Positions 10,497-37,178 of a DNA stretch of 64,000 bases are shown piece by piece. The stretch's first letter is position 1. Every line of letters starts with the position of its first letter. The DNA is from Shigella phage SHSML-45, in the sequence record KX130863, one strand, 5' to 3'. The notes beneath the pieces were generated by a model. That model was not told the origin of the DNA and searched no databases. It saw only the letters and a list, made by a program, of their open reading frames with translations. A program made the position numbers and the translations under genes.

Positions 10497-10573
10497 TTCA
10501 AAGCCCTCTCTATCAATTTATATAAATATTATATCAATAAAGAGGCTCTTTAGCAAATGAATTATTTACGAAA

Positions 10574-10921
10574 TTAGTCGTAGCACCACCATAAACCACG
10601 CTTACGCATGTCATGGTCGCGATTATAATCATAATTTTCTGGATCTTTCATCACGCGGTGGAGTTCTTGACGATTCCCTTGACGAACCATTTTATTAGAA
10701 TGCCACTTAACATTCTTACTAATAGAATTCCAGTTATAACCATCCTTTTTCTCATTACGAATGGTTGCTTCCTTCATTTCTTTTTTGATGTCGTCCCAAG
10801 ATTTGGCATAAGTAACACGAATGTAGTAGCCACTTGCTTTGAGGAAAGTATATCCCTGGGTGTAATTAGCTTTAGACTTCCACCACTGATCACCAGTTTG
10901 TCTACGATAAGTACGGCTCAT
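10574..10921 (-). CDS. hypothetical protein (115 aa)
   Basis: ORF, W/Y-rich. Confidence 0.35.
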   Translation of the reverse strand: MSRTYRRQTGDQWWKSKANYTQGYTFLKASGYYIRVTYAKSWDDIKKEMKEATIRNEKKDGYNWNSISKNVKWHSNKMVRQGNRQELHRVMKDPENYDYNRDHDMRKRGLWWCYD

Positions 10922-11000
10922 ATTACCTCCATTAAGTCTTTTAAATTAACCTAATGTGGATGAATTTTATTATACATAAACTATTTTCCTGTACACAGAA

Positions 11001-11034
11001 AAACCCCAGACTACTTATTCAATAGCTGGGGTTT
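11001..11034 (-). terminator. rho-independent terminator (possibly bidirectional)
   Basis: Stem aaaccccag/ctggggttt, T-runs on both sides. Confidence 0.45.
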
Positions 11035-11042
11035 GTTATTAA

Positions 11043-11357
11043 TTACAGATCGGGGCGTTCATCTTCGAAACAGCCTGAGCTAATTCCTTCTCCGAATCCT
11101 ACAAAGCCATCAAATTCGTCATTTGAGATGCCCATAATCATTGCTTCCATTTTCCTAATCTCCGAGATTTTCATGCCTGCTTTACTATTCTTATAGTACT
11201 TGCGAGGGTTCCCACACATCCAACAAGAACAGATGCAAGGAGTAGTAGTGATAATACCTAACCGTTTAGGGCTTTCTTCATGTGGGAAGACTGTCCAATA
11301 CTTTTTGCGATTGTTCTTCACACGTTGCCGGTGATGGCGTCTCAATGCTCGATCCAC
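11043..11357 (-). CDS. Cys-rich small protein
   Basis: CICSCWMCGNP motif. Confidence 0.35.
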   Translation of the reverse strand: MDRALRRHHRQRVKNNRKKYWTVFPHEESPKRLGIITTTPCICSCWMCGNPRKYYKNSKAGMKISEIRKMEAMIMGISNDEFDGFVGFGEGISSGCFEDERPDL

Positions 11358-11438
11358 ACATTTCTCCTAAAACTTGGGAGATAAATGGAGTTTGCTCGAC
11401 TACCTTGCGTAGCTGGGAGAAATCGTATCCAAACCCCA

Positions 11439-11807
11439 TTACATCGCCTGAGTAAATGTACGACTAATAACGTCGTTCTGTTGTTCACGAGTCAGTGCGT
11501 TAAAACGTACAGCGTACCCTGAAACACGGATAGTTAATTGAGGGTATTTTTCAGGATGTTTCTGTGCATCCAAAAGCTGATCACGACTTAACACATTGAC
11601 ATTTAGGTGCTGACCTCCCTCGATTTGAGGAACTACTTCCACCTTGACTTCACGGAAGGATTCGGGGTCAAAATGTGGTGTGATACCTTCTAGATCCTCA
11701 ACCAGAACTTTTTGTTTAAGTTCACCATCTTTAGAGTACAGTTGAATAATCTGATTATCATGAACAAGATTAATTACGCCAGACTTAAGATTTTGATATG
11801 CTTTCAT
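11439..11807 (-). CDS. grcA: autonomous glycyl-radical cofactor (GrcA/YfiD-like)
   Basis: C-terminus [59 protein letters not shown] closely resembles the PFL/GrcA glycyl-radical domain (RVSGY); start placed at the Met with AGGAGA SD because the longer ORF would overlap a tRNA. Confidence 0.8.
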
Positions 11808-11820
11808 TAGCTCTCCTGTT

Positions 11821-11896
11821 TGGTAGTTAGTAGTGGATTTGAACCACTGTAGTCGCTCCGTATGAAGGAGGTGCATAACCACTCTGCCAACTAACT
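11821..11896 (-). tRNA. tRNA, anticodon CAT (Met, fMet or Ile2)
   Basis: Hand fold: acceptor AGTTAGT/ACTAACT, anticodon loop TTCATAC, T-arm GGTTCAAATCC, encoded CCA. Confidence 0.6.
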
Positions 11897-11992
11897 ATTA
11901 TGTTTTACTAGGCTAAGTAAGTATTCTTTATACTCTTTAGACCAACTAGCTTTTTTAAACTTTCCTGGACGCATAGCCTTAATTCCTAGATT

Positions 11993-12069
11993 TGGTACTC
12001 CGGGAGGGATTTAAACCCCCGATCTCTCGGTTATCAGCCGAGTGCTTTAGATCGCTAAGCTACCGAAGC
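11993..12069 (-). tRNA. tRNA-Ile (GAT)
   Basis: Acceptor GCTTCGG, anticodon arm CTCGG-CTGATAA-CCGAG, encoded CCA. Confidence 0.7.
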
Positions 12070-12084
12070 ATTAAAATATTTACA

Positions 12085-12375
12085 TCACACACTGTCTAAG
12101 TAAGAAGTATAGTGGAATTTAGTTTCTCCAGTATTATCTACTTCTACCTCAGTTCGTGGTACTTGACGAACCACACCATGAATCATCTTATATCGGATGC
12201 CTCTAGCTGGTTCATGATCTTTTGGAAATACTTGTTTAACCGTCACTACTTTATATTCTTCACGCGGTGTTAGCACTACTACTTGATCACCCTCTTTGAT
12301 TTTCCAAGAAGATGGAAATTCATAGGTGTATCTTTGACCACCGGTAAGGAATATAACAGAAAGATAACGTTTCAT
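12085..12375 (-). CDS. hypothetical protein (96 aa)
   Basis: ORF between tRNA genes with its own promoter-like motif upstream. Confidence 0.4.
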   Translation of the reverse strand: MKRYLSVIFLTGGQRYTYEFPSSWKIKEGDQVVVLTPREEYKVVTVKQVFPKDHEPARGIRYKMIHGVVRQVPRTEVEVDNTGETKFHYTSYLDSV

Positions 12376-12452
12376 TTGGTTTCCCTCTCATTAATTTATA
12401 TAAATATTATAGCAATAAATAAGAGAGAAAGCAAATGAGTTTTTCTTGAAAT

Positions 12453-12527
12453 TGGTAGCGGGTTCCAGTACTGCCCTGGACTTACTTAGCTTATGAGACT
12501 AAGAAGAACTCTATGCCTCCCACCCGC
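12453..12527 (-). tRNA. tRNA-like, anticodon CAT, non-canonical T-loop
   Basis: Anticodon arm TTAGT-CTCATAA-GCTAA folds, but the T-loop (GGCAGTA) and acceptor pairing are imperfect. Confidence 0.35.
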
Positions 12528-12535
12528 AATTGTTT

Positions 12536-12660
12536 GGTCATTCTAGGCAGGACTCGAACCTGCTATCACTTGTGCGGACTTACGAGAACCATTCTTTCAC
12601 TCGAATCGAACGAGCTTCTGCCCTCGCCAAGTTGGTTTCCCCATCAACCACGCTAGAATG
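12536..12660 (-). ncRNA. tRNA-like or structured RNA region (two T-arm-like motifs)
   Basis: GCAGG-TTCGAGT-CCTGC and GCTCG-TTCGATT-CGAGT T-arm-like hairpins in an ORF-free stretch; I could not fold a complete cloverleaf by hand. Confidence 0.3.
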
Positions 12661-12781
12661 TTAGATTGTTTTCAGTGCAAGAGTCCGAGTCTTGGACACG
12701 ACCGCTTCGCAAGTACATAGGCAGCTTATCATGAGTCAGCACTTCCGAATTGCTAGCTCCGTGTTCTGCACTGAAATTCTG

Positions 12782-13129
12782 TTAGTTTAATCGTAAAGTA
12801 TTATCTACTTCACCATTAATTGTTCGGCATTCCTCTGGGATTGCCGGGGTGGCCTTGTATTCCCACCACTCAGCACCATCATATTCCCCACGTTCTAGCC
12901 AAGTTCCATCGGCAAACCATACATTACCATAAAGTAATTGTCCACCGTATCCAGAATCATATTCAAAGTCTAGGTTATTAAGAAAATCCTCAATGTATTC
13001 TTCTGTATAACCTAAAGGTAATACCCAAACTTTTTTATCCCCATAATACCCGAATTCTATTTTAATACACTTAACTTTAGAATTGGTATTTTTTAAGGCG
13101 AGTAACAGCTCTTCTTTAGCATTACGCAT
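12782..13129 (-). CDS. hypothetical protein (115 aa)
   Basis: ORF, W/Y-rich. Confidence 0.4.
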   Translation of the reverse strand: MRNAKEELLLALKNTNSKVKCIKIEFGYYGDKKVWVLPLGYTEEYIEDFLNNLDFEYDSGYGGQLLYGNVWFADGTWLERGEYDGAEWWEYKATPAIPEECRTINGEVDNTLRLN

Positions 13130-13153
13130 AGTATATTCTCATACTGAATTATT

Positions 13154-13231
13154 TTGGCGCGACCGATGGGATTTGAACCCACATTCCCTCCCGTGACAGG
13201 GGAGTACCATTACCAAGCCAGCCCCGGTCGC
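13154..13231 (-). tRNA. tRNA-Asp (GTC)
   Basis: Acceptor GCGACCG, anticodon arm CTCCC-CTGTCAC-GGGAG, T-arm GGTTCAAATCC, encoded CCA. Confidence 0.7.
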
Positions 13232-13240
13232 ATAATTTAT

Positions 13241-13426
13241 TTACTCAGCTTTGAGTTTTTCAATAGCTGCATTAAGTTCTTTAAGAAACTCTTTTCGTAC
13301 ATTAAGACGATTGAGACTTACTAGTATATCATGTTTAAGTTCTTCGATGTATTTCTTCTCAACTTCAATATTGTTGATAGTGCTATCACGATGAACTTCT
13401 AGCTGCGCAATCACATTCTTGGACAT
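13241..13426 (-). CDS. small coiled-coil protein (61 aa)
   Basis: ORF. Confidence 0.3.
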   Translation of the reverse strand: MSKNVIAQLEVHRDSTINNIEVEKKYIEELKHDILVSLNRLNVRKEFLKELNAAIEKLKAE

Positions 13427-13453
13427 GCTTGTTTCCTCAGTTATTAATGAAAA

Positions 13454-13526
13454 TGGTATCTGTGGCTGAATTCGATGTCAGCAATGATAGCTGGTTGGCT
13501 ACCGGTTTACTTAACTCTACACAGAA
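13454..13526 (-). tRNA. tRNA-like (anticodon unresolved)
   Basis: Canonical 3' half (GCTGA-CATCGAA-TCAGC T-arm, acceptor, CCA) but the anticodon arm folds with a 6-nt loop. Confidence 0.35.
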
Positions 13527-13528
13527 TT

Positions 13529-13611
13529 TGGCGGGCCGTGTAGGATTCGAACCTACGTTGTCTTTCGACACGGATTAACAATCCGCCGCCAAACCGCTTG
13601 GCTAACGACCC
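13529..13611 (-). tRNA. tRNA with anticodon GTT (Asn) and an extended variable arm
   Basis: Acceptor GGGTCGT/ACGGCCC, anticodon arm GCGGA-TTGTTAA-TCCGT, 13-nt variable region, T-arm GTAGG-TTCGAAT-CCTAC, CCA. Confidence 0.5.
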
Positions 13612-13763
13612 TAAATTTATATTGCTGACTAGGATTTTCACCTAGACGGAGTTAGCACCGTAGCGTGTAGCGGCATACCTCTCCAAACCGTGCCTCATCT
13701 TTCAATTACGGAGACAGTGTTCCTACGCGTGCCTGAATTGATTTAACAATTCTTTCAGCAAAT

Positions 13764-13839
13764 TGGACGACCGCATGAGATTTGAACTCACATAAAAAGG
13801 ATTTGCAATCCTTCGCCTAAGCCATTCAGCCAACGGTCG
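13764..13839 (-). tRNA. tRNA-Cys (GCA)
   Basis: Anticodon arm AAGGA-TTGCAAA-TCCTT, T-arm GGTTCAAATC, CCA. Confidence 0.7.
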
Positions 13840-14017
13840 ATCTATCTTGTTTTTCGAGATCTTCAAATTCTAGATCATTGAAGTTCCCTAGAGTACGGGT
13901 GTAGAACCTATCTCCTGAGTCATAGCCTGATTTACCACAATCATACATTTTAAATTCACGAAGAGGTGTGAAAATGTGTTCAGAACCACAACACTTAAAT
14001 CTAACTAATCGTTTCAT
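13826..14017 (-). CDS. small protein (63 aa)
   Basis: ORF; its 3' end overlaps the tRNA-Cys call, so one of the two is misplaced. Confidence 0.25.
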   Translation of the reverse strand: MKRLVRFKCCGSEHIFTPLREFKMYDCGKSGYDSGDRFYTRTLGNFNDLEFEDLEKQDRSTVG

Positions 14018-14066
14018 TAGCTTCTCCAGTTCAATTTATGTAATTATTATATAGAACTTTTGGAAA

Positions 14067-14345
14067 CTAAGCGACTACATTTTTTAAGAATTTGATGCCT
14101 TTCTTTTTCTTCTTATATTTCCACGTTAATGGATTTTGTCGATTATGAGCGCTTGAGATCTTTGTCTCGTCAAAGTTCTTCAATATCATGTAATCACAGG
14201 ATAATTGTTCTAGTGGAATGTGATCACCGTCAAAAGCGTATACATAAGGCTGTTGACTAGCACGATAATGATAGACTTTGTTAATTCTACGTTTCAGCGA
14301 CTTATCCGCGCAGTAAATAAAGAAGTTTTCAGGATGCATCAGCAT
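14067..14345 (-). CDS. hypothetical protein (92 aa)
   Basis: ORF. Confidence 0.4.
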   Translation of the reverse strand: MLMHPENFFIYCADKSLKRRINKVYHYRASQQPYVYAFDGDHIPLEQLSCDYMILKNFDETKISSAHNRQNPLTWKYKKKKKGIKFLKNVVA

Positions 14346-14356
14346 CTACTTCAATT

Positions 14357-14440
14357 TGGTGCATCGTGATGGATTTGAACCACCAACCCCGAAGGGCACG
14401 GATTTACAGACCGCTGCAATAGACATTCTGCCAACGATGC
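14357..14440 (-). tRNA. tRNA-Tyr (GTA), class II
   Basis: Anticodon loop CTGTAAA identical to E. coli tRNA-Tyr, long variable arm GCCCTTCGGGG, T-arm GGTGG-TTCAAAT-CCATC, CCA. Confidence 0.65.
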
Positions 14441-14568
14441 ACATTTAAAAGTATTCAAATACTAGTTTAAACACTTTTAAATATGTTTCCAAATTAGATA
14501 ACTATTATACCAAGTTTTAAGGCACTGAGCAAGTCAAATTTCGAAGAACTTGCTCAGTGCTGTATTAG

Positions 14569-14844
14569 TTAGTCGAACTTAGGAGTGACAGTTAAGGAGA
14601 ACGGAAGTTCAAAAACTTCTTCCCCCTCATTACTAACTGTAACTACACGACCTTTAAGTTCAGACATTAAAATATCAATATCAGCTTTTGCATCTGGAGC
14701 CATGCCAGCTTCAACACATTTAGCTTTAACTTCCGGAAGGAGTTCTACATCGTAGAAATAAAGCCATTCAATCTCACCTTCCCAGCCTTCCCAGGATTTA
14801 CAGATTGCACTTTCAATACCAGTTGCTATAACACGATTTTGCAT
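14569..14844 (-). CDS. hypothetical protein (91 aa)
   Basis: ORF. Confidence 0.4.
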   Translation of the reverse strand: MQNRVIATGIESAICKSWEGWEGEIEWLYFYDVELLPEVKAKCVEAGMAPDAKADIDILMSELKGRVVTVSNEGEEVFELPFSLTVTPKFD

Positions 14845-14934
14845 TCGTTAACTCCTTCATCAATTTATATAACTATTATATCAGAAATTTAAAGTAAAAG
14901 GCAAGTACATTTTTAAAAATTCTATTCGGAGGAG

Positions 14935-15141
14935 CTAAACTCCAGATTCTTCGGCCAAGTCTAGACTAATAAGAGTTATAGCCATAATTGCCGCACCATG
15001 TTCTTTTTCCCCGGTGTTTTTAGCAGAGTCTATAATATCCTTAATCTGTTCGTAATAACTTTTTACTTCTTGTTCAATACCTGCCTCGGCTATCATGCCT
15101 TTAGTCATGATTCGTTGCATAGTAATTTCACGGTTAGCCAT
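14935..15141 (-). CDS. hypothetical protein (68 aa)
   Basis: ORF; a possible unlisted 39-codon ORF (15133-15249) overlaps its start in an ATGGCTAA arrangement. Confidence 0.35.
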   Translation of the reverse strand: MANREITMQRIMTKGMIAEAGIEQEVKSYYEQIKDIIDSAKNTGEKEHGAAIMAITLISLDLAEESGV

Positions 15142-15316
15142 GATGTTTCTCCAGCTTCATTTTTAATAGTTTACAAATGAAGTCAACGTCTTCATCTGTG
15201 CCTAGATCTCTATCTTCAAGAGTTGCCTTGAAGTTTTTCGTTAGTTCCATAAGAACTACTTCTCTAGAACGACGTGTTGGCGGGGGTGGATGTCTATACA
15301 TCTTATTTCCTTAATT

Positions 15317-15391
15317 TGGTGGGTCGGAGGAGAATCTAACTCCTACTCGTTAGCTTATGAGGCCACCGCTTTAACTTTAAGCTACCGACCC
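15317..15391 (-). tRNA. tRNA, anticodon CAT (Met-type)
   Basis: Acceptor GGGTCGG/CCGACCC, anticodon loop CTCATAA, encoded CCA; T-loop is non-canonical (TTAGATT). Confidence 0.5.
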
Positions 15392-15397
15392 TATGTT

Positions 15398-15486
15398 TGG
15401 CGGAAGAAGGGGGAATCGAACCCACAAGGCTATATTTCAAACCGACAGATTAGCAATCTGCTGCAATACCGTTATGCTATTCTTCC
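15398..15486 (-). tRNA. tRNA-Ser (GCT), class II
   Basis: Acceptor GGAAGAA, anticodon arm GCAGA-TTGCTAA-TCTGT, long variable arm, T-arm TGGG-TTCGATT-CCCC, CCA. Confidence 0.7.
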
Positions 15487-15507
15487 GAATTTATAAGATA
15501 TATTATA

Positions 15508-16026
15508 TTAGAAATTTAGCTTCATGGCAAGAAAATTTTTCAAGTTTTCGGTAGACATCTCATCCACATCTATAGGAGAAACAAACCCATTTAATTGTCT
15601 AGCAAACTTTTCGCCAGCAGGATCATTATCCCCAACAGCTACCAATTTAAAAGGTAGTAATTTCAATTGCTTTAATAGCGGTTTTCCTGGAGAAGAACCC
15701 AACATTGCTAGAGCAGGATACCCAGCATTATGTAATGCTACAGCCTTAAATACAGATTCAGCAATTAATACTACTTTTTCATCCCCATTGAGAGTTTCTA
15801 GTCCCCATACACACTGTGTAGTAGAATAAGTAAAATATCTAGCTTCAAAGGGGCACTTACCATGACCTTTTGGAGCAGAAGGATTATAAGTCTGATAGCC
15901 TCTCAACATTCCAGAGAAGTCATACAATGGGACTGTTAGCCATCCTTCTGGGCTTAACCAGCAGTGATATTTATCTGTATCAAACCCTCTAGATAAGAGA
16001 TGTTCTGTTAGTTCATCAATAGTCAT
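15508..16026 (-). CDS. hypothetical protein with Toprim-like DxD segment
   Basis: KLVAVGDNDPAGEKFA resembles a Toprim acidic motif; start moved to the Met with GAGAGGAA SD (MTIDELTEHL). Confidence 0.4.
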   Translation of the reverse strand: MTIDELTEHLLSRGFDTDKYHCWLSPEGWLTVPLYDFSGMLRGYQTYNPSAPKGHGKCPFEARYFTYSTTQCVWGLETLNGDEKVVLIAESVFKAVALHNAGYPALAMLGSSPGKPLLKQLKLLPFKLVAVGDNDPAGEKFARQLNGFVSPIDVDEMSTENLKNFLAMKLNF

Positions 16027-16246
16027 ACTAGATTCCTCTCTCAAATTTATAAATATATTATGCAGAGAATTTAGCATTCAAGCAATTGAATTTTTTAACT
16101 TTTTAGAGGAAAATCACAGGATGCTTAAGGGTAGCAGGTAAGTGGGTAGACCCCAAAATTGTTATCCCCACTTGATTTTCAATGTGATATAGTGTAAAGT
16201 ATTTGTCATAGCTGAGTGACCAAAGAGACACACTTATCCTCTACCT

Positions 16247-16287
16247 TAAAACAGAAAAGCCCTGCGCTCTCCAGGGAACACAGGGCT
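16247..16287 (-). terminator. rho-independent terminator
   Basis: gccctg...cagggc stem followed on the minus transcript by UUUUCUGUUUU. Confidence 0.45.
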
Positions 16288-16311
16288 TACTTCGAATATT
16301 ACGTGTGGGAA

Positions 16312-17259
16312 TTACTTGTTACGCATATCCATAATCATCTGGCCATCGTAACCAGTGCCAACTACTGTTTGAGGTACACCGCCTTGATATTTCTGAGCAC
16401 GAATCATTTCAACTTCTAGTTGTTTCCAGCGAATCATCTCAGGAGTAATAGTACGTTGCAGAGCGGCGTTAGCTTCGGCTTCCTTCTTAGCTGCGTACAG
16501 TTTAGCATCTGCATCACGTTCGTTTGCAATAGCTTGGTTGTTACGAGCTTCACGATCTGCTTCTGCTTGTTTAACCTTCTGCTGTGCTTCTTGTTCAACA
16601 CGAGCCAACTCAGCTTTCGCAGCATTAACTTGTTCCTCACGAACTTTGGTATTCTGTACCTGTTCCACGATTACAGGCGGCAAAGTAATATCCTGAAGGA
16701 ACACTTGCTTAACTGTGTAACCATAAGGGCGTGCATACTCTTCAACTTCCTGTTGAATTGCGGTTTGTAATTGAGCCTGGATTTTAGCATCAAACAAATC
16801 TTGTGCTTTAGGAACAGACTTACCGAACTCACGAATAGTGGACAGTAATTTTTCAGTTACATATTTGTCTAATGCTTGATCCTGGGTACCTGCGTTAATA
16901 CGGTTAATCGGTGCCTTAGAACCATCAAACTGCAACATAACAGTCAGGTCAACAGTGGATTTAAACTTATCCTGACTAGGAACCTGAAGTTTATCTAATT
17001 TTACAGCAATGTCTTTTGTACTAAAAGTATCGAAAGATGCAAATGGGTTTACAAGATGAAAACCAGGTAATACAGGATTAGGGTCTACTTTACCCAGAAA
17101 TGTTTGGGTTTTAACCGTACCATCAGAAACAATAGTATATGAATTAAAAGCTAGGATTAAACCTGCTAAACCAACTACAGCACCAATACCCCAACGTTTA
17201 ATAGTGCGAATTACTTTTTGCTCAGAAGTCAGTTCTTTCATATTTTTAGTATTAAACAT
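16312..17259 (-). CDS. SPFH/band-7 (prohibitin/HflC-like) membrane protein
   Basis: N-terminal TM (GIGAVVGLAGLILAF), SPFH-like core, then an Ala/Glu/Gln-rich coiled coil (EQVNAAKAELARVEQEAQQKVKQAEADREARNNQAIA) as in HflK/HflC. Confidence 0.65.
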   Translation of the reverse strand: MFNTKNMKELTSEQKVIRTIKRWGIGAVVGLAGLILAFNSYTIVSDGTVKTQTFLGKVDPNPVLPGFHLVNPFASFDTFSTKDIAVKLDKLQVPSQDKFKSTVDLTVMLQFDGSKAPINRINAGTQDQALDKYVTEKLLSTIREFGKSVPKAQDLFDAKIQAQLQTAIQQEVEEYARPYGYTVKQVFLQDITLPPVIVEQVQNTKVREEQVNAAKAELARVEQEAQQKVKQAEADREARNNQAIANERDADAKLYAAKKEAEANAALQRTITPEMIRWKQLEVEMIRAQKYQGGVPQTVVGTGYDGQMIMDMRNK

Positions 17260-17270
17260 ATATTTCCTTA

Positions 17271-17471
17271 TTATTTAGAAGAGTTAGCTACTACAGTTAC
17301 TTTAGTTGCAGAAATAAACAGGCTAGCATCCACAGCAAATTCAGGAGCTTTGATATCTCCATTATGAAATATGACTATACCGGAGACTACTTCAAATGCT
17401 AGTGCTGTAACATCGGTGGTATTTACTTGTGAATGTTCACCTACTACTTTTACTATATATCGTGTTTTCAC
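17271..17471 (-). CDS. small protein (66 aa)
   Basis: ORF directly upstream of the SPFH gene. Confidence 0.35.
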   Translation of the reverse strand: MKTRYIVKVVGEHSQVNTTDVTALAFEVVSGIVIFHNGDIKAPEFAVDASLFISATKVTVVANSSK

Positions 17472-17497
17472 TTTATTTTCCTAGCAGTTAATAAAAT

Positions 17498-17572
17498 TGG
17501 CCGAGGTGACAGGATTCGAACCTGCATAAAGGAATTTAGAAGACTCCTGCCTCTCCCTTAGACTACACCCCG
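17498..17572 (-). tRNA. tRNA-Arg (TCT)
   Basis: Acceptor CGGGGTG/CACCTCG, anticodon arm GGAGT-CTTCTAA-ATTCC, T-arm GGTTCGAATCC, CCA. Confidence 0.7.
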
Positions 17573-18074
17573 TTTAAGTATTTTTAAGAACTCTCGTAAA
17601 AACTCTTAAAAATACAGACGATACCGGGAGAGTCATAAGTCTCACTCATTAAGTATTTCAAGACAAAATACAGTAACGTCTATTATTTTCCAGTTTAAGT
17701 CAAGGTGACTTAGTGGTTATGTCCTGCGGTATACTGAGGACTCGGTTAGGTTAGGGTCATGACTCCCCACCTTTTGCTGCTACTCAACAGGAGTTATCGC
17801 GAATTACCTGTGCTATTGTGCACCATTAGTGACATCTCTCATGTCAGCATTTCCCACTTTGTGGATAGCTTGAAAAACTACTCCGATATGGAGAAAGAAC
17901 TTCACTATCCTAGAATACCTTCTAAAGTTCTTCTTTAGCCTGGACATAGTTAAATCGTAATAAAACTATTCAGCAGACTGGTTGGTTAGTCTGGAACCAA
18001 CTACCGCGTGGTTTAGGCAGTGCGCAACTAACCTCGGAAGCTTTTACGTTAAAAGCACCAGTTATCCAGTTCTT

Positions 18075-18146
18075 ACCGACCGTAGGATTCGAACCTACAT
18101 CTTCCACCAGTTACGGCTTGATAATACCGTTTATACTAGATCGGCA
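18075..18146 (-). tRNA. tRNA-like (anticodon unresolved; CCA not encoded)
   Basis: Perfect T-arm GTAGG-TTCGAAT-CCTAC and acceptor GCCGATC/GGTCGGT (two G-U pairs); anticodon arm did not fold by hand. Confidence 0.4.
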
Positions 18147-18258
18147 GTGTTACTACATAAGTGATTTCCACACCCCACTATTTATAAATTAGAGAAGAAT
18201 TACTCTCTAATTTATGAATATATTATACAGAATTTATAAGCATTTAGCAAATGAATTT

Positions 18259-18693
18259 TTAGAAAAACTCGCTAGCAATCAAGGCGGCTGTTTTACCATC
18301 ATAACGCCCCGGAAACTCTGCCTTAATAGTTTTCATTAGGAGAGCTTTGGTAATACCTGGGTTTAGCTTAACCAATTCTGCAAAATATTTACGAATTTCA
18401 GTTTCAGTTAGCTGTTGTAGTGCATAATCATGCTCTAAACGCGCTAAAAGATCTAAGTATTCAGCATCAGGAGTATAGTCAACATTCGATTTTTCAGCGG
18501 CAATCCGTGTATTCTCAATTGCTTTGAGTTGTGATTTCAACCAGTTAGTAAACTCCAGCTCAGTTACGCAATCTTTATCAATACGTTGCAGGTCTCCTAG
18601 AACCGTACTTAGATGCTTAACTGATACAGCGTCACCACTTTTGCGAGCAGCTTCAATCAACTCTCGCAGTACATAAAGCATGTTCATGCCCAT
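18259..18693 (-). CDS. hypothetical protein (144 aa)
   Basis: ORF. Confidence 0.4.
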   Translation of the reverse strand: MGMNMLYVLRELIEAARKSGDAVSVKHLSTVLGDLQRIDKDCVTELEFTNWLKSQLKAIENTRIAAEKSNVDYTPDAEYLDLLARLEHDYALQQLTETEIRKYFAELVKLNPGITKALLMKTIKAEFPGRYDGKTAALIASEFF

Positions 18694-18931
18694 TATTTCA
18701 TCCCCAATGCTTGGTTAAAAGATTGTTCTGTCATAACTACTGAGACTTTGGCGAAATCAAACTTTTTAGGGTTCGTAGTGATCTCAGCAACGTTGGAAGT
18801 TTTAACAGTTTTCGTAGTACGAATACCGCGAGTGCTAACACCAATGACGATCAAGTTTTTCATATTTCGCTTCCTCTCATTAATTTATGAAAGTATTATA
18901 CAGAAGTTTAAGTATTTAAGCAAATAAATTT

Positions 18932-19381
18932 TTAAGTTTTAGTGACAGCAGGCTTATAAAATGTATGTCCCTTAATCTTAGTTGTTTTCTTAAACTTCTT
19001 TGTCCAGTATGGTTTATCTTTACCACTATGGAAGTATAAAGCTCCATGTGTAGGATCTTGTGGTAAATCAACGTAGTATATCACTCTAGCTAAATTCTTG
19101 GCAGTTTGCCAAGCCTCATCGGTTTTATCAACTTTTGGTCTCTTAGATACCCAAGAGAACTGGTTAGACTGATATACTACTTTACAGTAGGAATCTGGAA
19201 ATTTGCCGGAGTTTACACGGTTTTTAGTAACCTGTGCAACCGCCATCATTCCCTTTATGCCCTCACCACGACTCTCGAAATAGATATTTTTAGCAATGCA
19301 ATCTATTTCTTTTGCATCGTGCGATGCTTGACTACTAAAGCTGAAGGTAAGGGCAGCTACTAAAAGCAAAGCTGCCTTCAT
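18932..19381 (-). CDS. secreted cell-wall hydrolase (SleB/CwlJ-like)
   Basis: Signal peptide MKAALLLVAALTFSFSSQA; IAKNIYFESRGEGIKGMMAVAQVTKNR...FPDSYCKVVYQSNQFSW matches the SleB-type hydrolase pattern. Confidence 0.55.
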   Translation of the reverse strand: MKAALLLVAALTFSFSSQASHDAKEIDCIAKNIYFESRGEGIKGMMAVAQVTKNRVNSGKFPDSYCKVVYQSNQFSWVSKRPKVDKTDEAWQTAKNLARVIYYVDLPQDPTHGALYFHSGKDKPYWTKKFKKTTKIKGHTFYKPAVTKT

Positions 19382-19393
19382 TCTTTTTACTCC

Positions 19394-20215
19394 TTAAAAT
19401 AGATCATATTCTAATCTATTGGGATTTTCTCGGTATCCATAAGACGTAAGAGTACCCCTCATATACTCTGCGTCAACAGGATTAGATGTTACTAGAACCA
19501 CTTTTAGTGGTCTTTGACCTAAAAATAGTATATGATCTAATAAGTCTTTTCCTTGTACCTCTGGATCTCCTAAATCTGAGTCCATAAATAAATAGGATCC
19601 TGTGAAACTAAATATATCTGATAGCTCCAGCGCACCTATAACTGTACGACAAATAATGGACATTTCAGGTAGATCTCTAACATCGTCTATTAGAATATTG
19701 GTCTGCTTCCCAATTTCTGCATTACATAAACCATTTACTAGTTTTTCTCTTTCCCCTTTAGCTTGTTCGAAAGTGGTGAAGCCAGGAGATACGAAAAACT
19801 TTCCACCTAATGTAATGCTATACACAAAACCCTCGGGGAGGAGTTCTACACCTACGGTTTTATTAGTATTAATCCTATTTAACTTAAAATTTGTCTCTCT
19901 TAGATTAATAATTCTGTTATCCCACGGTATAGTATTTATATGGTCGATCATATCAGGCGGCTCTTCACCATAATGGAGCAACCACGCTATTCGGTGTCCA
20001 TAAATAATTGTGGGTTTATTATCTAAGAGCAAACTAACTCTGATGTACCCATCAGAGTTCTTACTACATATTTCTCTCCCAGCATATAGGGTGTGCCAAG
20101 TTTTATTCTTGTATTTATTAGGCCTATAAAATAATTTACCGGTATAAGGATTATACTCTATAATTTCTCGAATATAATCTATATATGGTAGTATTTGTTT
20201 TTGTAATTTACCCAT
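19394..20215 (-). CDS. HNH-AP2 homing endonuclease with ~100-aa C-terminal extension
   Basis: YGHRIAWLLHYGEEPPDMIDHINTIPWDNRIINLR and an AP2-like segment, then an unassigned C-terminal domain. Confidence 0.55.
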   Translation of the reverse strand: MGKLQKQILPYIDYIREIIEYNPYTGKLFYRPNKYKNKTWHTLYAGREICSKNSDGYIRVSLLLDNKPTIIYGHRIAWLLHYGEEPPDMIDHINTIPWDNRIINLRETNFKLNRINTNKTVGVELLPEGFVYSITLGGKFFVSPGFTTFEQAKGEREKLVNGLCNAEIGKQTNILIDDVRDLPEMSIICRTVIGALELSDIFSFTGSYLFMDSDLGDPEVQGKDLLDHILFLGQRPLKVVLVTSNPVDAEYMRGTLTSYGYRENPNRLEYDLF

Positions 20216-20657
20216 AATAGCCTCGTTTCATCAATTTAAAAATATATTATACAGATAACTTAATAAATTAGCAAATACATTTTTAAATTGTGAAACTAGT
20301 AAACCGATAAACAGCCTAGAGGCGCCACAGGCCATATCTTATGAGCCATGTACCTTTGATCTAGGGTTTGAATCATCAACGAATACTTTGCATCTTTTAG
20401 CTTTAGAAGTTTAGAAGTTTGAGTTCTTTAAACTTTTCAGCTTTCATACTTAAATGTTGATCTTTGAAGTTGTGTCGGTAATATCAACGACGCTTTGTTC
20501 TTACGTGTCAGCTTAAAAGGCTGGTGTAATAAACATAATCTCCAATAGATTATACTTTATAGTATGGTCAGCGGTCTTATTTAACCTCGTATTTCAACCG
20601 CTGCTGCGAGGTAAGATGCTTGGGCTTTCGTCTACCGATTTACTAGCTTTTAAATTA

Positions 20658-21296
20658 TTACTCTACTTCAATGAAGGTAGAGGCGTTAGACTCGGACAGA
20701 ACAAAGTCAACATTTGTTGCAAAGTCCTGGTATTCCTCGTCATGCTGCTTAATCAGCTTCTCCAGTTCCAGCGGATCAATCAAGAATGGAGTATTCTTGA
20801 GTTCCAGCAGGTTGAGCTGCATTTTAACTTCATCTTCGGAAGTTTTCTTATCGCGGGTAGCCATGCTATCCTGCAAACGCTCATATTTAGCATCAAACTG
20901 TGCTTTCTGCGTATTAAACTTAACTGTAGCGGCATGGAACTGCTTACGCATATTAGCCAGCAACTGAGCTTTAAGCTCCATAGAACGCTTAGCTTCAATT
21001 GCTTCTGCAACAGTCATTCTACGAGAACCGATCTCAACGATCGTTTCTGCGTTGCTCTTAATCAGGGCAGCTTTGATACGATCACGCTGGGACATCATAT
21101 CCAGCAGAGACTGGAAATCAGTCTTAATACGAGTAGACAGGTCATCTACTTCGATTGCAGCGCCAACTACAACCTGGTTTTTATCCTTACCTTCACCAAC
21201 AGCGATCAAAAGCTGTTGTTCAGTAGCTTTACGGATTTTAGCTTCCAGAGATTTGATGGTTGCCAGAGCACGAGTTTTAGAAATACGAGTGGTCAT
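20658..21296 (-). CDS. hypothetical protein (212 aa), host-like codon usage
   Basis: ORF; overlapping plus-strand ORFs judged spurious. Confidence 0.45.
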   Translation of the reverse strand: MTTRISKTRALATIKSLEAKIRKATEQQLLIAVGEGKDKNQVVVGAAIEVDDLSTRIKTDFQSLLDMMSQRDRIKAALIKSNAETIVEIGSRRMTVAEAIEAKRSMELKAQLLANMRKQFHAATVKFNTQKAQFDAKYERLQDSMATRDKKTSEDEVKMQLNLLELKNTPFLIDPLELEKLIKQHDEEYQDFATNVDFVLSESNASTFIEVE

Positions 21297-21348
21297 TGTT
21301 TCTTCCTTATATGAAGTTTAAGATTTGAATTTGTTTAAAGTTGGTCTA

Positions 21349-21531
21349 TTACAGACCAATTGCCAGCAGAGTGCGTAGAACAGTATCGTTACTGTTATCA
21401 ATTTTAGGGTTAGCACGATTTAGCAGATCAAAGATTTTCTGGATGCCGGACTGACGTTCAGCCATACGACGCAGACCCAGGTTACGTTTTGCTACTTTAC
21501 CATTTTTACGGACGTTTTTAGATACTGGCAT
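21349..21531 (-). CDS. small basic protein (60 aa)
   Basis: ORF. Confidence 0.35.
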   Translation of the reverse strand: MPVSKNVRKNGKVAKRNLGLRRMAERQSGIQKIFDLLNRANPKIDNSNDTVLRTLLAIGL

Positions 21532-21601
21532 AATTATTTTCCTTTTGTTGTTTTCTCAAATTTATGAATATATTATACAGAATTTTGGAGCCGGAAGCAA
21601 A

Positions 21602-22303
21602 TCAAATTTTCATTTTTTCGATCATAGCTGCAACACAATAGCTCTCAACTAAGGCATCGAATGCTGGGTCATGTTTAACTGGGTAGATTCCATAACGAAT
21701 GGTATCCATCTTCTCCATCTTAGCTTTTGCCCAGCTAATCCCCTCTGCTTCTAGGTCTTTGTAACTATAACCAGCCTGCATCCAGAGATTGCGGAGAGAT
21801 CGAACATTACCCAAATTCCAGAATTTCCACGGAACTATTTCTTCATTGGTTCCAGCATGGAAAGTGTTTGCAGAGTAGATAGTCATATCAAACTCTGGGC
21901 CGTTGCCATAATACAAAGCATTCTCTCCTAGAGCCAACTCCATAATATTTTGAGCCATAGAGAAGGCAGCATAGTTTGAGCCTAATTTATTAGTGCAATG
22001 ATGTTTACCATTTTGGAAGGCAATCAGTTTTGGATTACGTTCCTTCATAGCTTCCATAATGTGGATAGCAGACGGGCTATTTTTAGCTTGATCCATCCAG
22101 AATGCTAGAGTAGATGCTGTAACTTTGGCACCAGAATTAAGCTGATCCTGCACATCCAAAGTAACAAATACTAGATCAGGGTCTTTATCAACCCCATGCA
22201 TAGCCACAAAAGCGAAAGAAGGCATTACGATATGAGTAGTACCACAATCTCCTGGAGTTCCTAGAGATTCAATATCTAGCATACCAAATGGTTTTACTTT
22301 CAT
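21602..22303 (-). CDS. putative 3'-5' exonuclease (DnaQ/DEDD-like)
   Basis: N-terminal MLDIESLGT resembles the Exo I DxE motif; 233 aa. Confidence 0.45.
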   Translation of the reverse strand: MKVKPFGMLDIESLGTPGDCGTTHIVMPSFAFVAMHGVDKDPDLVFVTLDVQDQLNSGAKVTASTLAFWMDQAKNSPSAIHIMEAMKERNPKLIAFQNGKHHCTNKLGSNYAAFSMAQNIMELALGENALYYGNGPEFDMTIYSANTFHAGTNEEIVPWKFWNLGNVRSLRNLWMQAGYSYKDLEAEGISWAKAKMEKMDTIRYGIYPVKHDPAFDALVESYCVAAMIEKMKI

Positions 22304-37006: not shown

Positions 37007-37015
37007 AATTTCATT

Positions 37016-37044: not shown

Positions 37045-37055
37045 ATTCCCATAAA

Positions 37056-37165: not shown

Positions 37166-37178
37166 ATTTATATTGAAT

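What the first reader, a model, noticed from the sequence alone, without database searches (positions are those of the whole stretch)
17573..18150. Second ORF-free RNA-like block downstream of tRNA-Arg
About 500 bp have no credible ORF, yet contain a tRNA-like 3' half with a perfect T-arm (18075-18146) and a plus-strand segment with a tRNA D-loop-like motif (gtgacttagtggttatg near 17705). This may be a decayed tRNA cluster or a non-coding RNA locus.
Basis: seen in the sequence. Interest (0 to 1): 0.45.

Follow-up and report, generated by a model that had tools for sequence, protein, structure and literature searches.

The report
Large folded RNA gene of T5-like phages
The ORF-free block is the gene for "RNAX", a ~640-base elaborately folded non-coding RNA of T5-like phages that carries a built-in tRNA-shaped module; it has been annotated in a few phage records for years, but its fold, its family and its function have never been described.

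Summary
The window is a T5-like phage (99.8% identical to Salmonella phage Shivani). The block is real and holds no conserved ORF. It is neither a decayed tRNA cluster nor a plus-strand feature.

It is the minus-strand gene annotated in T5, BF23 and DT57C as "rnaX, stable RNA with unknown functions". It has its own sigma-70 promoter (18250-18222) and runs about 18215 to 17573, ending at the 5' end of tRNA-Arg.

Relatives occur in 523 phage records, all Demerecviridae where I read the taxonomy. They range from 0.64 to about 1.3 kb and are modular. Compensatory base changes support the fold:
- Domain I: 92% of cells paired against 31-40% in slid controls, with 22 of 40 pairs changed on both sides.
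- Domain II: 92% paired, with 13 of 26 pairs changed on both sides.

A long helix carries a tRNA-shaped module. Its acceptor, D and T arms and its elbow are conserved, but it has no anticodon loop and no free ends. A hairpin loop displays an invariant palindromic 12-mer.

No Rfam family other than tRNA matches. The RNA resembles GOLLD and ROOL in kind (phage tRNA island, embedded tRNA, conserved 3' part, variable 5' part, dispensable) but is not a member of either. Its function is unknown. My inferred mechanism is a self-associating scaffold that presents a tRNA mimic.

The parts
18222..18250 (-). Sigma-70 promoter of the RNA: TTGCTA, 17-nt spacer, TATAAT. The start of transcription is inferred at about 18215.
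   Evidence: It is the only strong promoter-like site in 17200-18400, matching 10 of 12 positions. It is conserved in the relatives. T5 record AY734508 annotates 'promoter P16-17' at the homologous place.
18184..18215 (-). 5' hairpin (13 bp in the MFE fold, 10 of them a perfect inverted repeat; 6-nt loop). In many relatives its loop holds an optional 150-370 nt extra domain with a pseudoknot. That domain is absent here.
   Evidence: Minimum-free-energy folds. The 5' part measures 65 nt here and in T5, and 201-246 or 392-434 nt in other relatives. The same stem closes the insert in those relatives.
18008..18178 (-). Domain I. It is closed by helix P1' (18175-18178 with 18008-18011: GUGG/CCAC). 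It contains the long helix P2, the tRNA-like module and hairpin HB1 (18040-18056).
   Evidence: P1' covaries: AUGG/CCAU in bobsandoy and ACGG/CCGU in DU_PP_V. Over the whole domain, 92.3% of cells are paired against 31-40% when partners are slid, and 22 of 40 pairs changed on both sides.
18152..18165 (-). 5' strand of helix P2. It pairs with 18057-18070, so the two strands enclose the tRNA-like module.
   Evidence: 99.5% of cells are paired and 7 of 12 pairs changed on both sides, for example AGU/ACU, AAC/GUU, GAU/AUC, AAU/AUU, AGC/GCU.
18074..18145 (-). tRNA-like module. It has an acceptor stem, a D arm with the conserved GG, and a T arm GGUUCGAAUCC. In place of the anticodon arm there is a short variable hairpin. 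No CCA is encoded.
   Evidence: ARAGORN and Rfam tRNA at 36.8 bits. Alignment and pair counts. The anticodon arm differs between relatives: a 3-bp stem with a 6-nt loop here, a GCGAA-capped stem in phiR2-01, and a two-part arm about 14-15 nt longer in Sugarland-like phages. The whole module is replaced in Sds2 and L034.
18057..18070 (-). 3' strand of helix P2. It contains the conserved GGAUAAC.
17859..18001 (-). Hairpin HB2 (17981-18001) and a variable central module. The module type differs between lineages.
   Evidence: Variants of segment C. HB2 shows the change GUUGGUU/AACCAAC to GUUGAUU/AAUCAAC. Sub-hairpins show AGAA/UUCU, GGC/GCC and GUC/GAC. These were read from the alignment and not formally counted.
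17713..17857 (-). Domain II. It is closed by GUGG/CCAC (17854-17857 with 17713-17716). It contains hairpins HD1 (17830-17846), HD3 (17788-17810) and HE1 (17721-17741), plus the hairpin that carries the palindromic loop.
   Evidence: 91.6% of cells are paired against 30-50% when slid, and 13 of 26 pairs changed on both sides. The closing helix changes to ACGG/CCGU in DU_PP_V.
17755..17766 (-). 12-mer GGAGUCAUGACC, with the palindromic core GUCAUGAC. It sits in a 17-nt hairpin loop closed by the covarying 4-bp helix 17769-17772 / 17748-17751.
   Evidence: AGUCAUGACC is invariant in every one of the 44 distinct relative sequences held. The second base is A instead of G in 17 of the 37 sequences extracted. 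The closing helix is AGGU/ACCU, AGGC/GCCU or AGAC/GUCU in close relatives, GUGAC/GUCAC in Sugarland-like phages and AGAC/GUCU in DU_PP_V. The 12-mer occurs once in the window. Its self-duplex is -12.4 kcal/mol.
17616..17711 (-). 3' module. It has hairpin HF1 (17697-17711), the conserved single strand UAAACUGGAA, and a three-way junction (17616-17681) with the conserved GCUUAAU.
   Evidence: Four lineages with different sequences share HF1, a closing helix with inner hairpin(s) and the terminal hairpin when folded singly; two show the full three-way junction. z-scores are -2.3 to -3.5. Formal counts are weaker because the alignment slips in register.
17578..17615 (-). Terminal AU-rich hairpin of 15 bp with no U-tract after it, directly before tRNA-Arg. 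It may be a processing site.
   Evidence: 96.7% of cells are paired and it is nearly invariant. It is conserved even in DU_PP_V and in phages that lack tRNA-Arg at this place. No terminator-like site was found in 17200-18400.
17498..17572 (-). tRNA-Arg(UCU), with CCA encoded. Its 5' end marks the annotated 3' end of RNAX.
   Evidence: ARAGORN and Rfam at 49.3 bits. The rnaX features in DT57C and T5 abut tRNA-Arg.

Best explanation
**Shown.**
- The block is a gene for a large structured non-coding RNA, the 'RNAX' of T5-like phages, read on the minus strand.
- It has its own early sigma-70-type promoter at 18250-18222, with transcription starting at about 18215.
- No terminator lies before tRNA-Arg, so the two are expected to be made as one transcript (inferred).
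- The RNA is about 640 nt here and up to about 1.3 kb in relatives. It is built of modules:
  - a 5' hairpin, which is the insertion point of an optional domain;
  - domain I, in which a long helix carries a tRNA-shaped module. Its elbow is conserved, but a plain hairpin replaces the anticodon arm and its 5' and 3' flanks pair with each other;
  - a swappable central module;
  - domain II, which displays an invariant palindromic 12-mer in a hairpin loop;
  - a three-way junction;
  - a long AU-rich hairpin.

**Inferred from established tRNA processing.** RNase P cutting at the 5' end of tRNA-Arg would release the 3' end of RNAX. The terminal hairpin may also be cut by a double-strand-specific RNase.

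**Inferred mechanism (about 0.25-0.3).**
- RNAX works as an RNA scaffold of the GOLLD/ROOL kind.
- It self-associates through the palindromic loop by kissing pairing.
- It presents a non-decodable tRNA mimic to a factor that reads the tRNA elbow. Candidates are the phage YqeY-like protein encoded just upstream, RNase P, or the ribosome.
- It is an accessory function of the tRNA and anti-defence island, not needed for growth in laboratory hosts.
For: **Identity.**
- The block is 96-99% identical to the stretches annotated rnaX in DT57C, DT571/2, T5 AY734508 and BF23.

**No coding capacity.**
- All four ORFs are broken in relatives.

**Structure.**
- Pair counts support domains I and II against both controls.
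- Long-range helices P1' and P2 each show several independent compensatory variants.
- The 3' module keeps its main elements (HF1, closing helix, terminal hairpin) in four lineages.

**Promoter and terminators.**
- One promoter-like site and no terminator.

**tRNA mimic.**
- The acceptor, D and T stems covary.
- The GG of the D loop is nearly invariant and most of GGUUCGA in the T loop is invariant.
- The anticodon arm is replaced by unrelated hairpins.

**Palindromic loop.**
- AGUCAUGACC is invariant in 44 distinct sequences, and the closing helix differs in sequence between lineages.

**Dispensability.**
- AY734508 marks the end points of the viable T5 st0 deletion on either side of rnaX.

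**Context.**
- The RNA lies in a phage tRNA island next to the homolog of the anti-retron gene Rad.
- A YqeY-like gene is syntenic upstream in most lineages, down to 30-49% protein identity.
- GOLLD and ROOL share the context, the embedded tRNAs, the conserved 3' and variable 5' parts, dispensability and homo-oligomer formation.
Against: - No transcript data were available here. 'Stable RNA' rests on GenBank annotation only.
- Nothing tested here shows oligomer formation.
- An 8-nt palindrome with this self-duplex energy arises in 37 of 500 shuffles of the 12-mer.
- The motif also reads as GGAG..AUG, a Shine-Dalgarno-plus-start look-alike, and it could be a site read on DNA.
- The tRNA-like module is replaced by another element in Sds2 and L034, so it is not indispensable.
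- The YqeY assignment is weak: model pLDDT 70, TM-score about 0.3, no Pfam or PDB sequence hit.
- No YqeY-like gene was found in the Sugarland-like loci I fetched, which reach only a few hundred bases upstream of the RNA.
- Gene order is broadly conserved in this phage family anyway.
- There is no sequence or structure similarity to GOLLD or ROOL.
Confidence: 0.6

Rival explanations
1. Anti-defence decoy. RNAX is a tRNA mimic that soaks up or misleads a host defence factor that recognises tRNA shape, or otherwise counters a defence system. This would be an accessory function of the tRNA and anti-defence island.
For: It lies among phage tRNA genes and about 1.5 kb from the homolog of T5 ORF071 (Rad, anti-retron). 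PMC10644984 describes this region as a mobile anti-defence locus and cites work showing that T5 tRNA-Tyr rescues the toxicity of the Eco7 retron. It is dispensable in the laboratory, being inside the st0 deletion. It carries a conserved tRNA-shaped module. It shows modular, recombination-like variation between phages.
Against: The module has no anticodon loop. From my own knowledge, the best-known tRNA-targeting defence nucleases cut the anticodon loop. Two phages have replaced the module altogether. A decoy would not obviously need 570 further structured nucleotides.
Confidence: 0.15
2. Cis-acting leader. The structured RNA is only a long 5' leader that stabilises, times or processes the transcript of tRNA-Arg and the genes behind it. 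It would have no function of its own once released.
For: It directly abuts tRNA-Arg with no terminator between them. The terminal hairpin next to the tRNA or the next gene is the most widely conserved piece, reaching DU_PP_V.
Against: Between 0.6 and 1.3 kb of covarying structure with invariant single-stranded motifs is far more than a leader needs. The RNA is kept where tRNA-Arg is absent and a protein gene follows instead: SE24, bobsandoy, 1-23, S124, Kpn9P3. GenBank curators list it as a separate stable RNA.
Confidence: 0.1
3. Translation-directed RNA. The GGAG..AUG motif in the loop, together with the tRNA-shaped module, engages ribosomes or initiation factors.
For: The invariant 12-mer reads GGAG-UC-AUG. 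The RNA has a tRNA-like module. PMC12286853 reports that ribosomes bind GOLLD in pull-downs.
Against: The spacing of 2 nt between GGAG and AUG is too short for normal initiation (my own knowledge). The reading frame behind the AUG is not conserved: 4 codons here, 2 in SE24, open in Sugarland-like phages. The ends of the tRNA-like module are paired, so it cannot be charged.
Confidence: 0.05
4. Decayed tRNA cluster (one of the first reader's two readings). The block would be the remains of several tRNA genes that no longer function.
For: The region is a tRNA island with 10 tRNA-type predictions in the window. One weak tRNA-like element lies in the block. T5 record AY587007 flags it as a pseudo-tRNA.
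Against: There is only one tRNA-like element. The rest has no tRNA similarity at E<=10. Helices are maintained by compensatory changes and motifs are invariant across phage subfamilies, which is purifying selection and not decay.
Confidence: 0.03
5. Small protein genes. One of the 44-60 aa ORFs in the block would be a real gene. Several GenBank records annotate 'hypothetical proteins' here.
For: ORFs of 59, 44, 45 and 60 aa exist. Some records annotate 2-5 hypothetical proteins under the match.
Against: Each ORF is interrupted by a frameshift or stop in relatives: T5, SE3, L018 and L022 for three of them, L018 and the more distant SE24 for the fourth. No ORF spans the conserved motifs consistently.
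Confidence: 0.02

Closest known systems
rnaX ('RNAX, stable RNA with unknown functions') as annotated in T5 (AY734508), BF23 (NC_042564), DT57C and DT571/2
   Same: It is the same gene. Identity is 96-99%. The position is the same, between promoter P16-17 and tRNA-Arg, and so is the strand.
   Different: The annotation gives only coordinates and a name. No structure, family or function is given. Most other records leave the region blank, call the tRNA-like piece 'tRNA-OTHER', 'tRNA-Ser', 'tRNA-Sec' or 'tRNA-Pro', or place hypothetical proteins on it.
GOLLD RNA (Rfam RF01998)
   Same: It is a very large ornate RNA of phages and prophages, found next to tRNA islands. [quoted passage not shown] Its function is unknown. 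RNAX shares each of these features.
   Different: No match to the GOLLD covariance model even at E<=10. The sequence motifs differ. The host range differs: phages of Enterobacterales here. The embedded element here is a tRNA mimic without an anticodon loop, not a working tRNA. Cage formation is shown for GOLLD and untested here.
ROOL RNA (Rfam RF03087)
   Same: It averages about 580 nt, has many junctions and pseudoknots, is found in phages near tRNA genes, is abundant but non-essential, and forms a homo-oligomer. RNAX has a similar size and context and is also dispensable.
   Different: No match to the ROOL model. RNAX contains a tRNA-like module and an invariant palindromic loop that are not described for ROOL.
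tRNA-like domains inside larger non-coding RNAs: tmRNA and bacterial Y RNA YrlA (from my own knowledge)
   Same: Each has an acceptor/T-arm/D-loop mimic embedded in a bigger RNA. The mimic serves as a handle for tRNA-binding factors and has no normal anticodon arm.
   Different: ARAGORN finds no tmRNA and Rfam finds no tmRNA or Y RNA. In tmRNA the mimic is formed by the two ends of the RNA and can be charged. Here it is an internal branch whose flanks pair in helix P2. RNAX is 5-10 times larger than YrlA.
Small stable RNAs of the phage T4 tRNA gene cluster: species 1 and 2, rnaC and rnaD (from my own knowledge, not checked here)
   Same: They are phage-encoded stable RNAs of unknown function, made together with tRNAs from a tRNA cluster and dispensable in the laboratory.
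   Different: They are only about 120-140 nt. No sequence relation was tested or is expected.

Membership tests
T5 rnaX (annotated stable RNA of Tequintavirus) | Sequence identity with the annotated rnaX features | tested here: met
   97.1% identity to DT57C rnaX over 100% of the query. T5 and BF23 rnaX lie at the homologous place.
T5 rnaX (annotated stable RNA of Tequintavirus) | Position: own promoter upstream, tRNA-Arg directly downstream, same strand as the tRNA genes | tested here: met
   Promoter at 18250-18222. tRNA-Arg at 17498-17572. The layout matches AY734508.
T5 rnaX (annotated stable RNA of Tequintavirus) | Accumulates as a stable RNA in infected cells | not testable with these tools
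   Only the GenBank note says so. No transcript data or paper was found.
tRNA (Rfam RF00005) | Acceptor, D and T arms with the elbow nucleotides | tested here: met
   Rfam 36.8 bits against a gathering score of 29. The stems covary. The GG of the D loop is nearly invariant and most of GGUUCGA in the T loop is invariant.
tRNA (Rfam RF00005) | Anticodon arm with a 7-nt loop and an anticodon that is stable across relatives | tested here: not met
   The Rfam alignment skips the arm. It is a 3-bp stem with a 6-nt loop here, a GCGAA-capped stem in phiR2-01, and a two-part arm about 14-15 nt longer in Sugarland-like phages. ARAGORN calls it Ser(act), SeC(tca), undetermined, Ser(aga) or nothing.
tRNA (Rfam RF00005) | Free 5' and 3' ends with CCA, either encoded (as in the neighbouring phage tRNA-Arg) or addable | tested here: not met
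   The 3' side reads A-AGA with no CCA. The flanks pair with each other in helix P2, which is 99.5% paired with 7 of 12 pairs changed on both sides.
GOLLD RNA (RF01998) | Match to the family covariance model (conserved 3' domain) | tested here: not met
   No hit at E<=1 in 10000-22000. No hit at E<=10 on the 791-nt region or on 11 relatives.
GOLLD RNA (RF01998) | Phage or prophage location next to tRNA genes, conserved 3' and variable 5' part, tRNA within the RNA | tested here: met
   The family features are taken from PMC12286853.
GOLLD RNA (RF01998) | Homo-oligomeric cage | not testable with these tools
   This needs biophysics or cryo-EM. Only a palindromic loop hints at self-association.
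ROOL RNA (RF03087) | Match to the family covariance model | tested here: not met
   No hit.
tmRNA | tRNA-like domain formed by the 5' and 3' ends, plus a tag reading frame | tested here: not met
   ARAGORN reports no tmRNA in the window or in 15 relatives. The tRNA-like module is internal and contiguous. No ORF is conserved.
Intrinsic-terminator-bounded small RNA or cis-regulatory leader | Terminator at the 3' end, or a known leader family | tested here: not met
   No terminator-like site in 17200-18400. No cis-regulatory Rfam family matched.

The most novel reading that the evidence does not exclude
RNAX would be a third, independent class of giant ornate phage RNA beside GOLLD and ROOL, found in the classic model phage T5 and its relatives. 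It would assemble into a homo-oligomer through the invariant GUCAUGAC loop. It would display covalently built-in tRNA mimics, which the phage YqeY-like protein or host tRNA-handling machinery would read during infection.
Probability: 0.25. Interest if true: 0.75.

Novelty: new variant of a known kind. Interest (0 to 1): 0.6.

Why it matters
Large ornate RNAs next to phage tRNA islands, GOLLD and ROOL, are a long-standing puzzle. Their cage structures are now known (PMC12286853), but their function is not. Genetics and host tools are well developed for T5.

RNAX looks like a member of the same kind of RNA in T5-like phages of E. coli, Salmonella and Klebsiella:
- A viable deletion mutant (st0) already exists.
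- Hundreds of sequenced relatives give natural module swaps.
- The embedded tRNA mimic and the palindromic loop give two sharp handles for mutagenesis.

If it works like GOLLD or ROOL, it would make the question of what these RNAs do directly testable in a model system.

On the practical side, the family has no Rfam model. As a result the region is annotated inconsistently: blank, odd tRNAs, or spurious hypothetical proteins.

Tried and rejected
- **Rfam.** Three searches, including E<=10 on the region alone and on 11 relatives, returned only tRNA. The other hits (SpF41 sRNA at 25.5 bits against a gathering score of 52, and various microRNA models) are noise.
- **tmRNA.** ARAGORN found none.
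- **Literature.** Searches for T5 stable RNA, RNAX, tRNA-like, and GOLLD together with T5 found nothing relevant. One call failed on a two-letter search term. The DT57C paper and a T5 RNA polymerase paper do not mention the RNA.
- **Collection scans with the leader motif.** Viral contigs gave only genomes already known as isolates. Of 107 metagenome matches, 12 were real. Of 46 bacterial-genome matches, none was real. These scans see only members with an exact leader motif, so they do not set the true limits of the family.
- **Automatic all-against-all covariation on a global MAFFT alignment.** This was too noisy, because modules of different lineages do not align. I replaced it with module-wise alignments.
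- **Hairpin within the leader (positions 10-12 with 18-20).** Rejected. Two of four lineages break it, and those bases instead pair with 18057-18060 as part of P2.
- **Pairing of the conserved CUGGAA with the HB2 loop UUCCAG.** Fits T5-like members only and has no partner in AAS21, Kpn9P3 or Stitch. Left unresolved.
- **Pairing of the palindrome with hairpin HF1.** AAS21 lacks that hairpin. Rejected as a general feature.
- **YqeY assignment of the upstream protein.** Pfam, NCBIfam and PDB sequence searches were negative. Only PHROGs and a weak fold match support it.
- **The 3' module.** Formal pair counts were only partly informative because the alignment slips in register.
Full report
**What the window is.**
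The block and its flanks (17400-18300) are 99.8% identical to Salmonella phage Shivani. The same region is 95-99% identical in about 200 other T5-like phages. The region is the early tRNA island of such a phage. ARAGORN finds ten tRNA-type genes between 11.8 and 18.1 kb, all on the minus strand. The finding must therefore be read on the minus strand. In the direction of transcription the block lies upstream of tRNA-Arg(UCU) (17498-17572), not downstream.

**Checking the observation.**
- Between 17573 and 18150 the only ORFs are 44-60 aa.
- Each of them is broken by a frameshift or stop in relatives. The 59-aa ORF is broken in T5, SE3, L018 and L022. The 44-aa ORF is broken in T5 and SE3. The 45-aa ORF is broken in SE3. 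The 60-aa ORF is broken in L018 and in the more distant SE24.
- The tRNA-like element is real. ARAGORN calls 18073-18146 'tRNA-Ser(act)', and the Rfam tRNA model scores 36.8 bits against a gathering score of 29.
- The Rfam alignment matches the acceptor, D and T arms and skips the anticodon arm.
- The plus-strand 'D-loop-like' string at 17704-17721 exists, but no tRNA is predicted there. It is the reverse complement of conserved helices of the minus-strand RNA.

**It is an annotated but uncharacterised gene.**
- In DT57C and DT571/2 the homologous stretch is a misc_RNA, 'rnaX: RNAX, stable RNA with unknown functions'. It abuts tRNA-Arg.
- T5 record AY734508 annotates 'promoter P16-17', then rnaX (719 nt), then tRNA-Arg. 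BF23 record NC_042564 also carries rnaX.
- T5 record AY587007 marks only the tRNA-like piece, as a pseudo-tRNA.
- Most other records leave the region blank, call the tRNA-like piece tRNA-OTHER, Ser, Sec or Pro, or put hypothetical proteins on it.
- AY734508 also marks the recombination sites of the T5 st0 deletion on either side of rnaX. That st0 is viable is my own knowledge. The RNA is therefore dispensable for growth in the laboratory.
- I found no paper on the RNA in the searchable library.

**Transcription signals.**
- The only strong promoter-like site in 17200-18400 is on the minus strand: TTGCTA, 17 nt, TATAAT at 18250-18222.
- There is no terminator-like site.
- The promoter and the first transcribed bases are conserved in distant relatives.
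- I infer a start near 18215 and a single transcript with tRNA-Arg. RNase P cutting at the 5' end of the tRNA would then give the annotated 3' end at 17573. This follows from established tRNA processing and is not shown here.

**The family.**
- The block has relatives in 523 phage records. Taxonomy was read for about a dozen of them: Tequintavirus, Epseptimavirus, Sugarlandvirus, Pantoea phage AAS21 and, more distantly, Pectobacterium phage DU_PP_V of another subfamily. A few records carry organism names such as Listeria or Campylobacter, which I did not check.
- A scan with the leader motif found 12 true members among metagenome contigs and none among 46 chance matches in bacterial genomes. 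This scan sees only members with an exact leader motif.
- No Rfam family except tRNA matches, even at E<=10 on the region alone or on 11 relatives.
- The RNA is modular.
  - The 5' part is 65 nt here and in T5. Other relatives have a 5' part of 201-246 or 392-434 nt (the larger classes include further sequence after the closing stem), inserted in the loop of the 5' hairpin.
  - That extra domain has a pseudoknot that covaries: CAGCG/CGCUG becomes CAGCA/UGCUG, and CCGA/UCGG becomes CUGA/UCAG or CAGA/UCUG.
  - The central module comes in several types.
  - Total length reaches about 1.3 kb in Sugarland-like Klebsiella phages and about 1.04 kb in Yersinia phage phiR2-01.

**Structure of domain I (window 18178-18008).**
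I give helices by position p, where p = 18181 minus the window coordinate.
- Helix P1' (p3-6 with p170-173) is GUGG/CCAC. It is AUGG/CCAU in bobsandoy and ACGG/CCGU in DU_PP_V.
- Helix P2 (p16-29 with p111-124) encloses the tRNA-like module. It shows five different compensatory versions of one 3-bp block (AGU/ACU, AAC/GUU, GAU/AUC, AAU/AUU, AGC/GCU). Another block shows three (AUCA/UGGU, CUGA/UCGG, AUCA/UGAU).
- On a MAFFT alignment of 16 distinct sequences, the nine helix segments I proposed have 92.3% of cells paired. When the 3' partners are slid by 1-3 columns, 31-40% are paired.
- 22 of 40 pairs changed on both sides, against 3-8 when slid. None of 500 shuffles reached the observed score. 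P2 alone is 99.5% paired.

**The tRNA-like module (18145-18074).**
- The acceptor, D and T stems covary.
- The GG of the D loop is nearly invariant and most of GGUUCGA in the T loop is invariant. These bases form the tRNA elbow.
- The anticodon arm is not conserved as such:
  - a 3-bp stem with a 6-nt loop here;
  - a stem capped by GCGAA in phiR2-01;
  - a two-part arm about 14-15 nt longer in Sugarland-like phages.
- ARAGORN accordingly gives Ser(act), SeC(tca), undetermined, Ser(aga) or nothing for different relatives.
- No CCA is encoded, and the flanks of the module are paired in P2.
- In Sds2 and L034 the module is replaced by an unrelated element inside the same closing stem.
- It is therefore a structural tRNA mimic built in as a branch, not a decoding tRNA and not a decaying one.

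**Structure of domain II (17857-17713).**
- It is closed by GUGG/CCAC, which becomes ACGG/CCGU in DU_PP_V.
- On 12 sequences the proposed helices are 91.6% paired against 30-50% when slid. 13 of 26 pairs changed on both sides, and none of 500 shuffles reached the score.
- The most striking feature is GGAGUCAUGACC (17766-17755).
  - AGUCAUGACC is invariant in all 44 distinct sequences held.
  - It sits in a hairpin loop.
  - The closing helix of that hairpin has a different sequence in each lineage: AGGU/ACCU, AGGC/GCCU, AGAC/GUCU, GUGAC/GUCAC, CUAAAC/GUUUAG.
  - Its core GUCAUGAC is an 8-nt palindrome. Its self-duplex is -12.4 kcal/mol, and 37 of 500 shuffles of the 12-mer do as well.
- A conserved palindrome shown in a loop is what a kissing-loop self-association site looks like. 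That reading is an inference.
- The motif also reads as GGAG..AUG, and it could be read on DNA.

**The 3' module (17711-17578).**
- It has an invariant hairpin, the conserved single strand UAAACUGGAA, a three-way junction with GCUUAAU, and a 15-bp AU-rich terminal hairpin.
- Formal counts are weaker here: 82.7% paired against 37-52% when slid. MAFFT mis-registers the junction between lineages.
- Single-sequence folds of four lineages with different sequences share the hairpin HF1, a closing helix with inner hairpin(s) and the terminal hairpin. Two of them show the full three-way junction. z-scores are -2.3 to -3.5.
- The terminal hairpin has no U-tract. It is kept even where a protein gene, not tRNA-Arg, follows. 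A processing role, for example an RNase III-type cut, is a guess.

**Neighbours.**
- Upstream lies a 144-aa gene (18259-18693).
  - It belongs to PHROG 1460, 'tRNA amidotransferase'.
  - A single-sequence model (pLDDT 70) has YqeY proteins as its five best PDB matches over the full length (probability 0.80-0.98). TM-scores are only about 0.3.
  - Pfam, NCBIfam and PDB sequence searches were negative.
  - This gene sits directly upstream of the RNA in most lineages, down to 49% (DU_PP_V) and 30% (AAS21) protein identity. It was not found in the Sugarland-like loci I fetched, which reach only a few hundred bases upstream of the RNA.
  - From my own knowledge, the YqeY-like tail of GatB contacts the tRNA D-loop region. 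That makes this protein a candidate partner of the tRNA mimic, but the link is weak.
- Downstream lie tRNA-Arg, a 66-aa gene of unknown function, an SPFH/band-7 protein, and the homolog of T5 ORF071 at 15508-16077.
- PMC10644984 reports that T5 ORF071 is Rad, an inhibitor of retron defence, and describes that locus as a mobile anti-defence island.

**How it most likely works.**
- Shown: a conserved, modular, highly structured RNA gene with its own promoter, an embedded tRNA mimic and an invariant palindromic loop. It is dispensable in the laboratory.
- Inferred: release from tRNA-Arg by RNase P.
- Inferred (about 0.25-0.3): action as a self-associating scaffold that presents the tRNA mimic to an elbow-reading partner.
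- Rivals, with my estimates:
  - an anti-defence decoy, 0.15;
  - a mere cis-acting leader, 0.1;
  - a ribosome-directed RNA, 0.05;
  - a decayed tRNA cluster, 0.03;
  - small proteins, 0.02.

**Comparison with known systems.**
In kind, RNAX is closest to GOLLD and ROOL. These are large ornate phage RNAs beside tRNA islands. GOLLD has a conserved 3' part, a variable 5' part and sometimes tRNAs inside. ROOL is abundant but non-essential. Both form homo-oligomers and neither has a known function (PMC12286853, PMC5737381). RNAX fails the membership test for both, because it does not match either covariance model. It also fails the tests for tRNA (no anticodon loop, no free ends) and for tmRNA.

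**Novelty and verdict.**
The gene has been annotated since the T5 tRNA-region records were deposited, so its existence is not new. Within what I could search, three things appear to be undescribed:
- the family, with its modular architecture and covariation-supported fold;
- the nature of the 'odd tRNA' as an internal tRNA mimic;
- the invariant palindromic loop.

I rate it a new variant of a known kind (large ornate phage RNAs) with interest 0.6. It is not surprising as an RNA locus. It is a promising and tractable entry point to an open question.

Noticed in passing
window 15508-16077 (-): This 189-aa ORF is the homolog of T5 ORF071/T5.076 ('DNA primase-like', TOPRIM). PMC10644984 reports that this T5 gene is Rad, an inhibitor of retron defence. 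RNAX therefore lies about 1.5 kb from an anti-defence gene.
   Followed up: partly
window 18259-18693 (-): The 144-aa protein upstream of the RNA is PHROG 1460, 'tRNA amidotransferase', with a weak YqeY-like fold match. Several GenBank records call the same gene 'recombination related exonuclease', which looks like a mis-annotation.
   Followed up: partly
relatives: L018, L028, L008, L015, L011, L198 (5' part of the RNA): Many relatives carry an extra 150-370 nt domain in the loop of the 5' hairpin, with a covarying pseudoknot (CAGCG-AGCCGAUUA-CGCUG ... AGUCGGU). The window and T5 lack it. The largest versions bring the RNA to about 1.3 kb.
   Followed up: partly
L009 (phage Sds2) and L034, position of the tRNA-like module: The tRNA-like module is replaced by an unrelated ~50-nt element inside the same closing stem (GCCAGA...UUCUGG). 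It looks like a natural module swap.
   Followed up: no
L003/L033 (T5) versus window 17690-17700: T5 itself has an ~83-nt insertion that duplicates hairpin HF1 and the UAAACUGGAA strand. This is why T5 rnaX is 719 nt and the DT57C feature 636 nt.
   Followed up: no
L200 (Yersinia phage phiR2-01) about 1440-1960: About 520 nt lie between the end of the RNA and tRNA-Arg. They look like an unannotated ORF, possibly a mobile endonuclease-type insertion.
   Followed up: no
window 15317-15391 (-): ARAGORN calls this tRNA-Met(cat). The DT57C record annotates the homolog as tRNA-Ile(CAU), which would be a lysidine-dependent isoleucine tRNA.
   Followed up: no
window 12376-12781, 20216-20615 and 37007-37662: These are further stretches of 400-650 nt without any ORF of 70 aa or more. 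The first lies in the tRNA island and had only noise-level Rfam hits. It may be the 'first' ORF-free block implied by the title of the finding.
   Followed up: no
L001 355-427 (DT57C); homologous place in the window near 13.4-13.6 kb: DT57C and T5 annotate a second small RNA, 'RNA3, putative stable RNA with unknown functions' (73 nt), in the same tRNA island. In the window ARAGORN calls an 83-nt tRNA-Asn in this neighbourhood.
   Followed up: no
window 17578-17615 (-) and relatives: One position of the terminal hairpin (p570 with p599) varies freely: U-A, C-G, C.A, C.C and U.C. A mismatch or bulge at this spot therefore seems to be tolerated.
   Followed up: no
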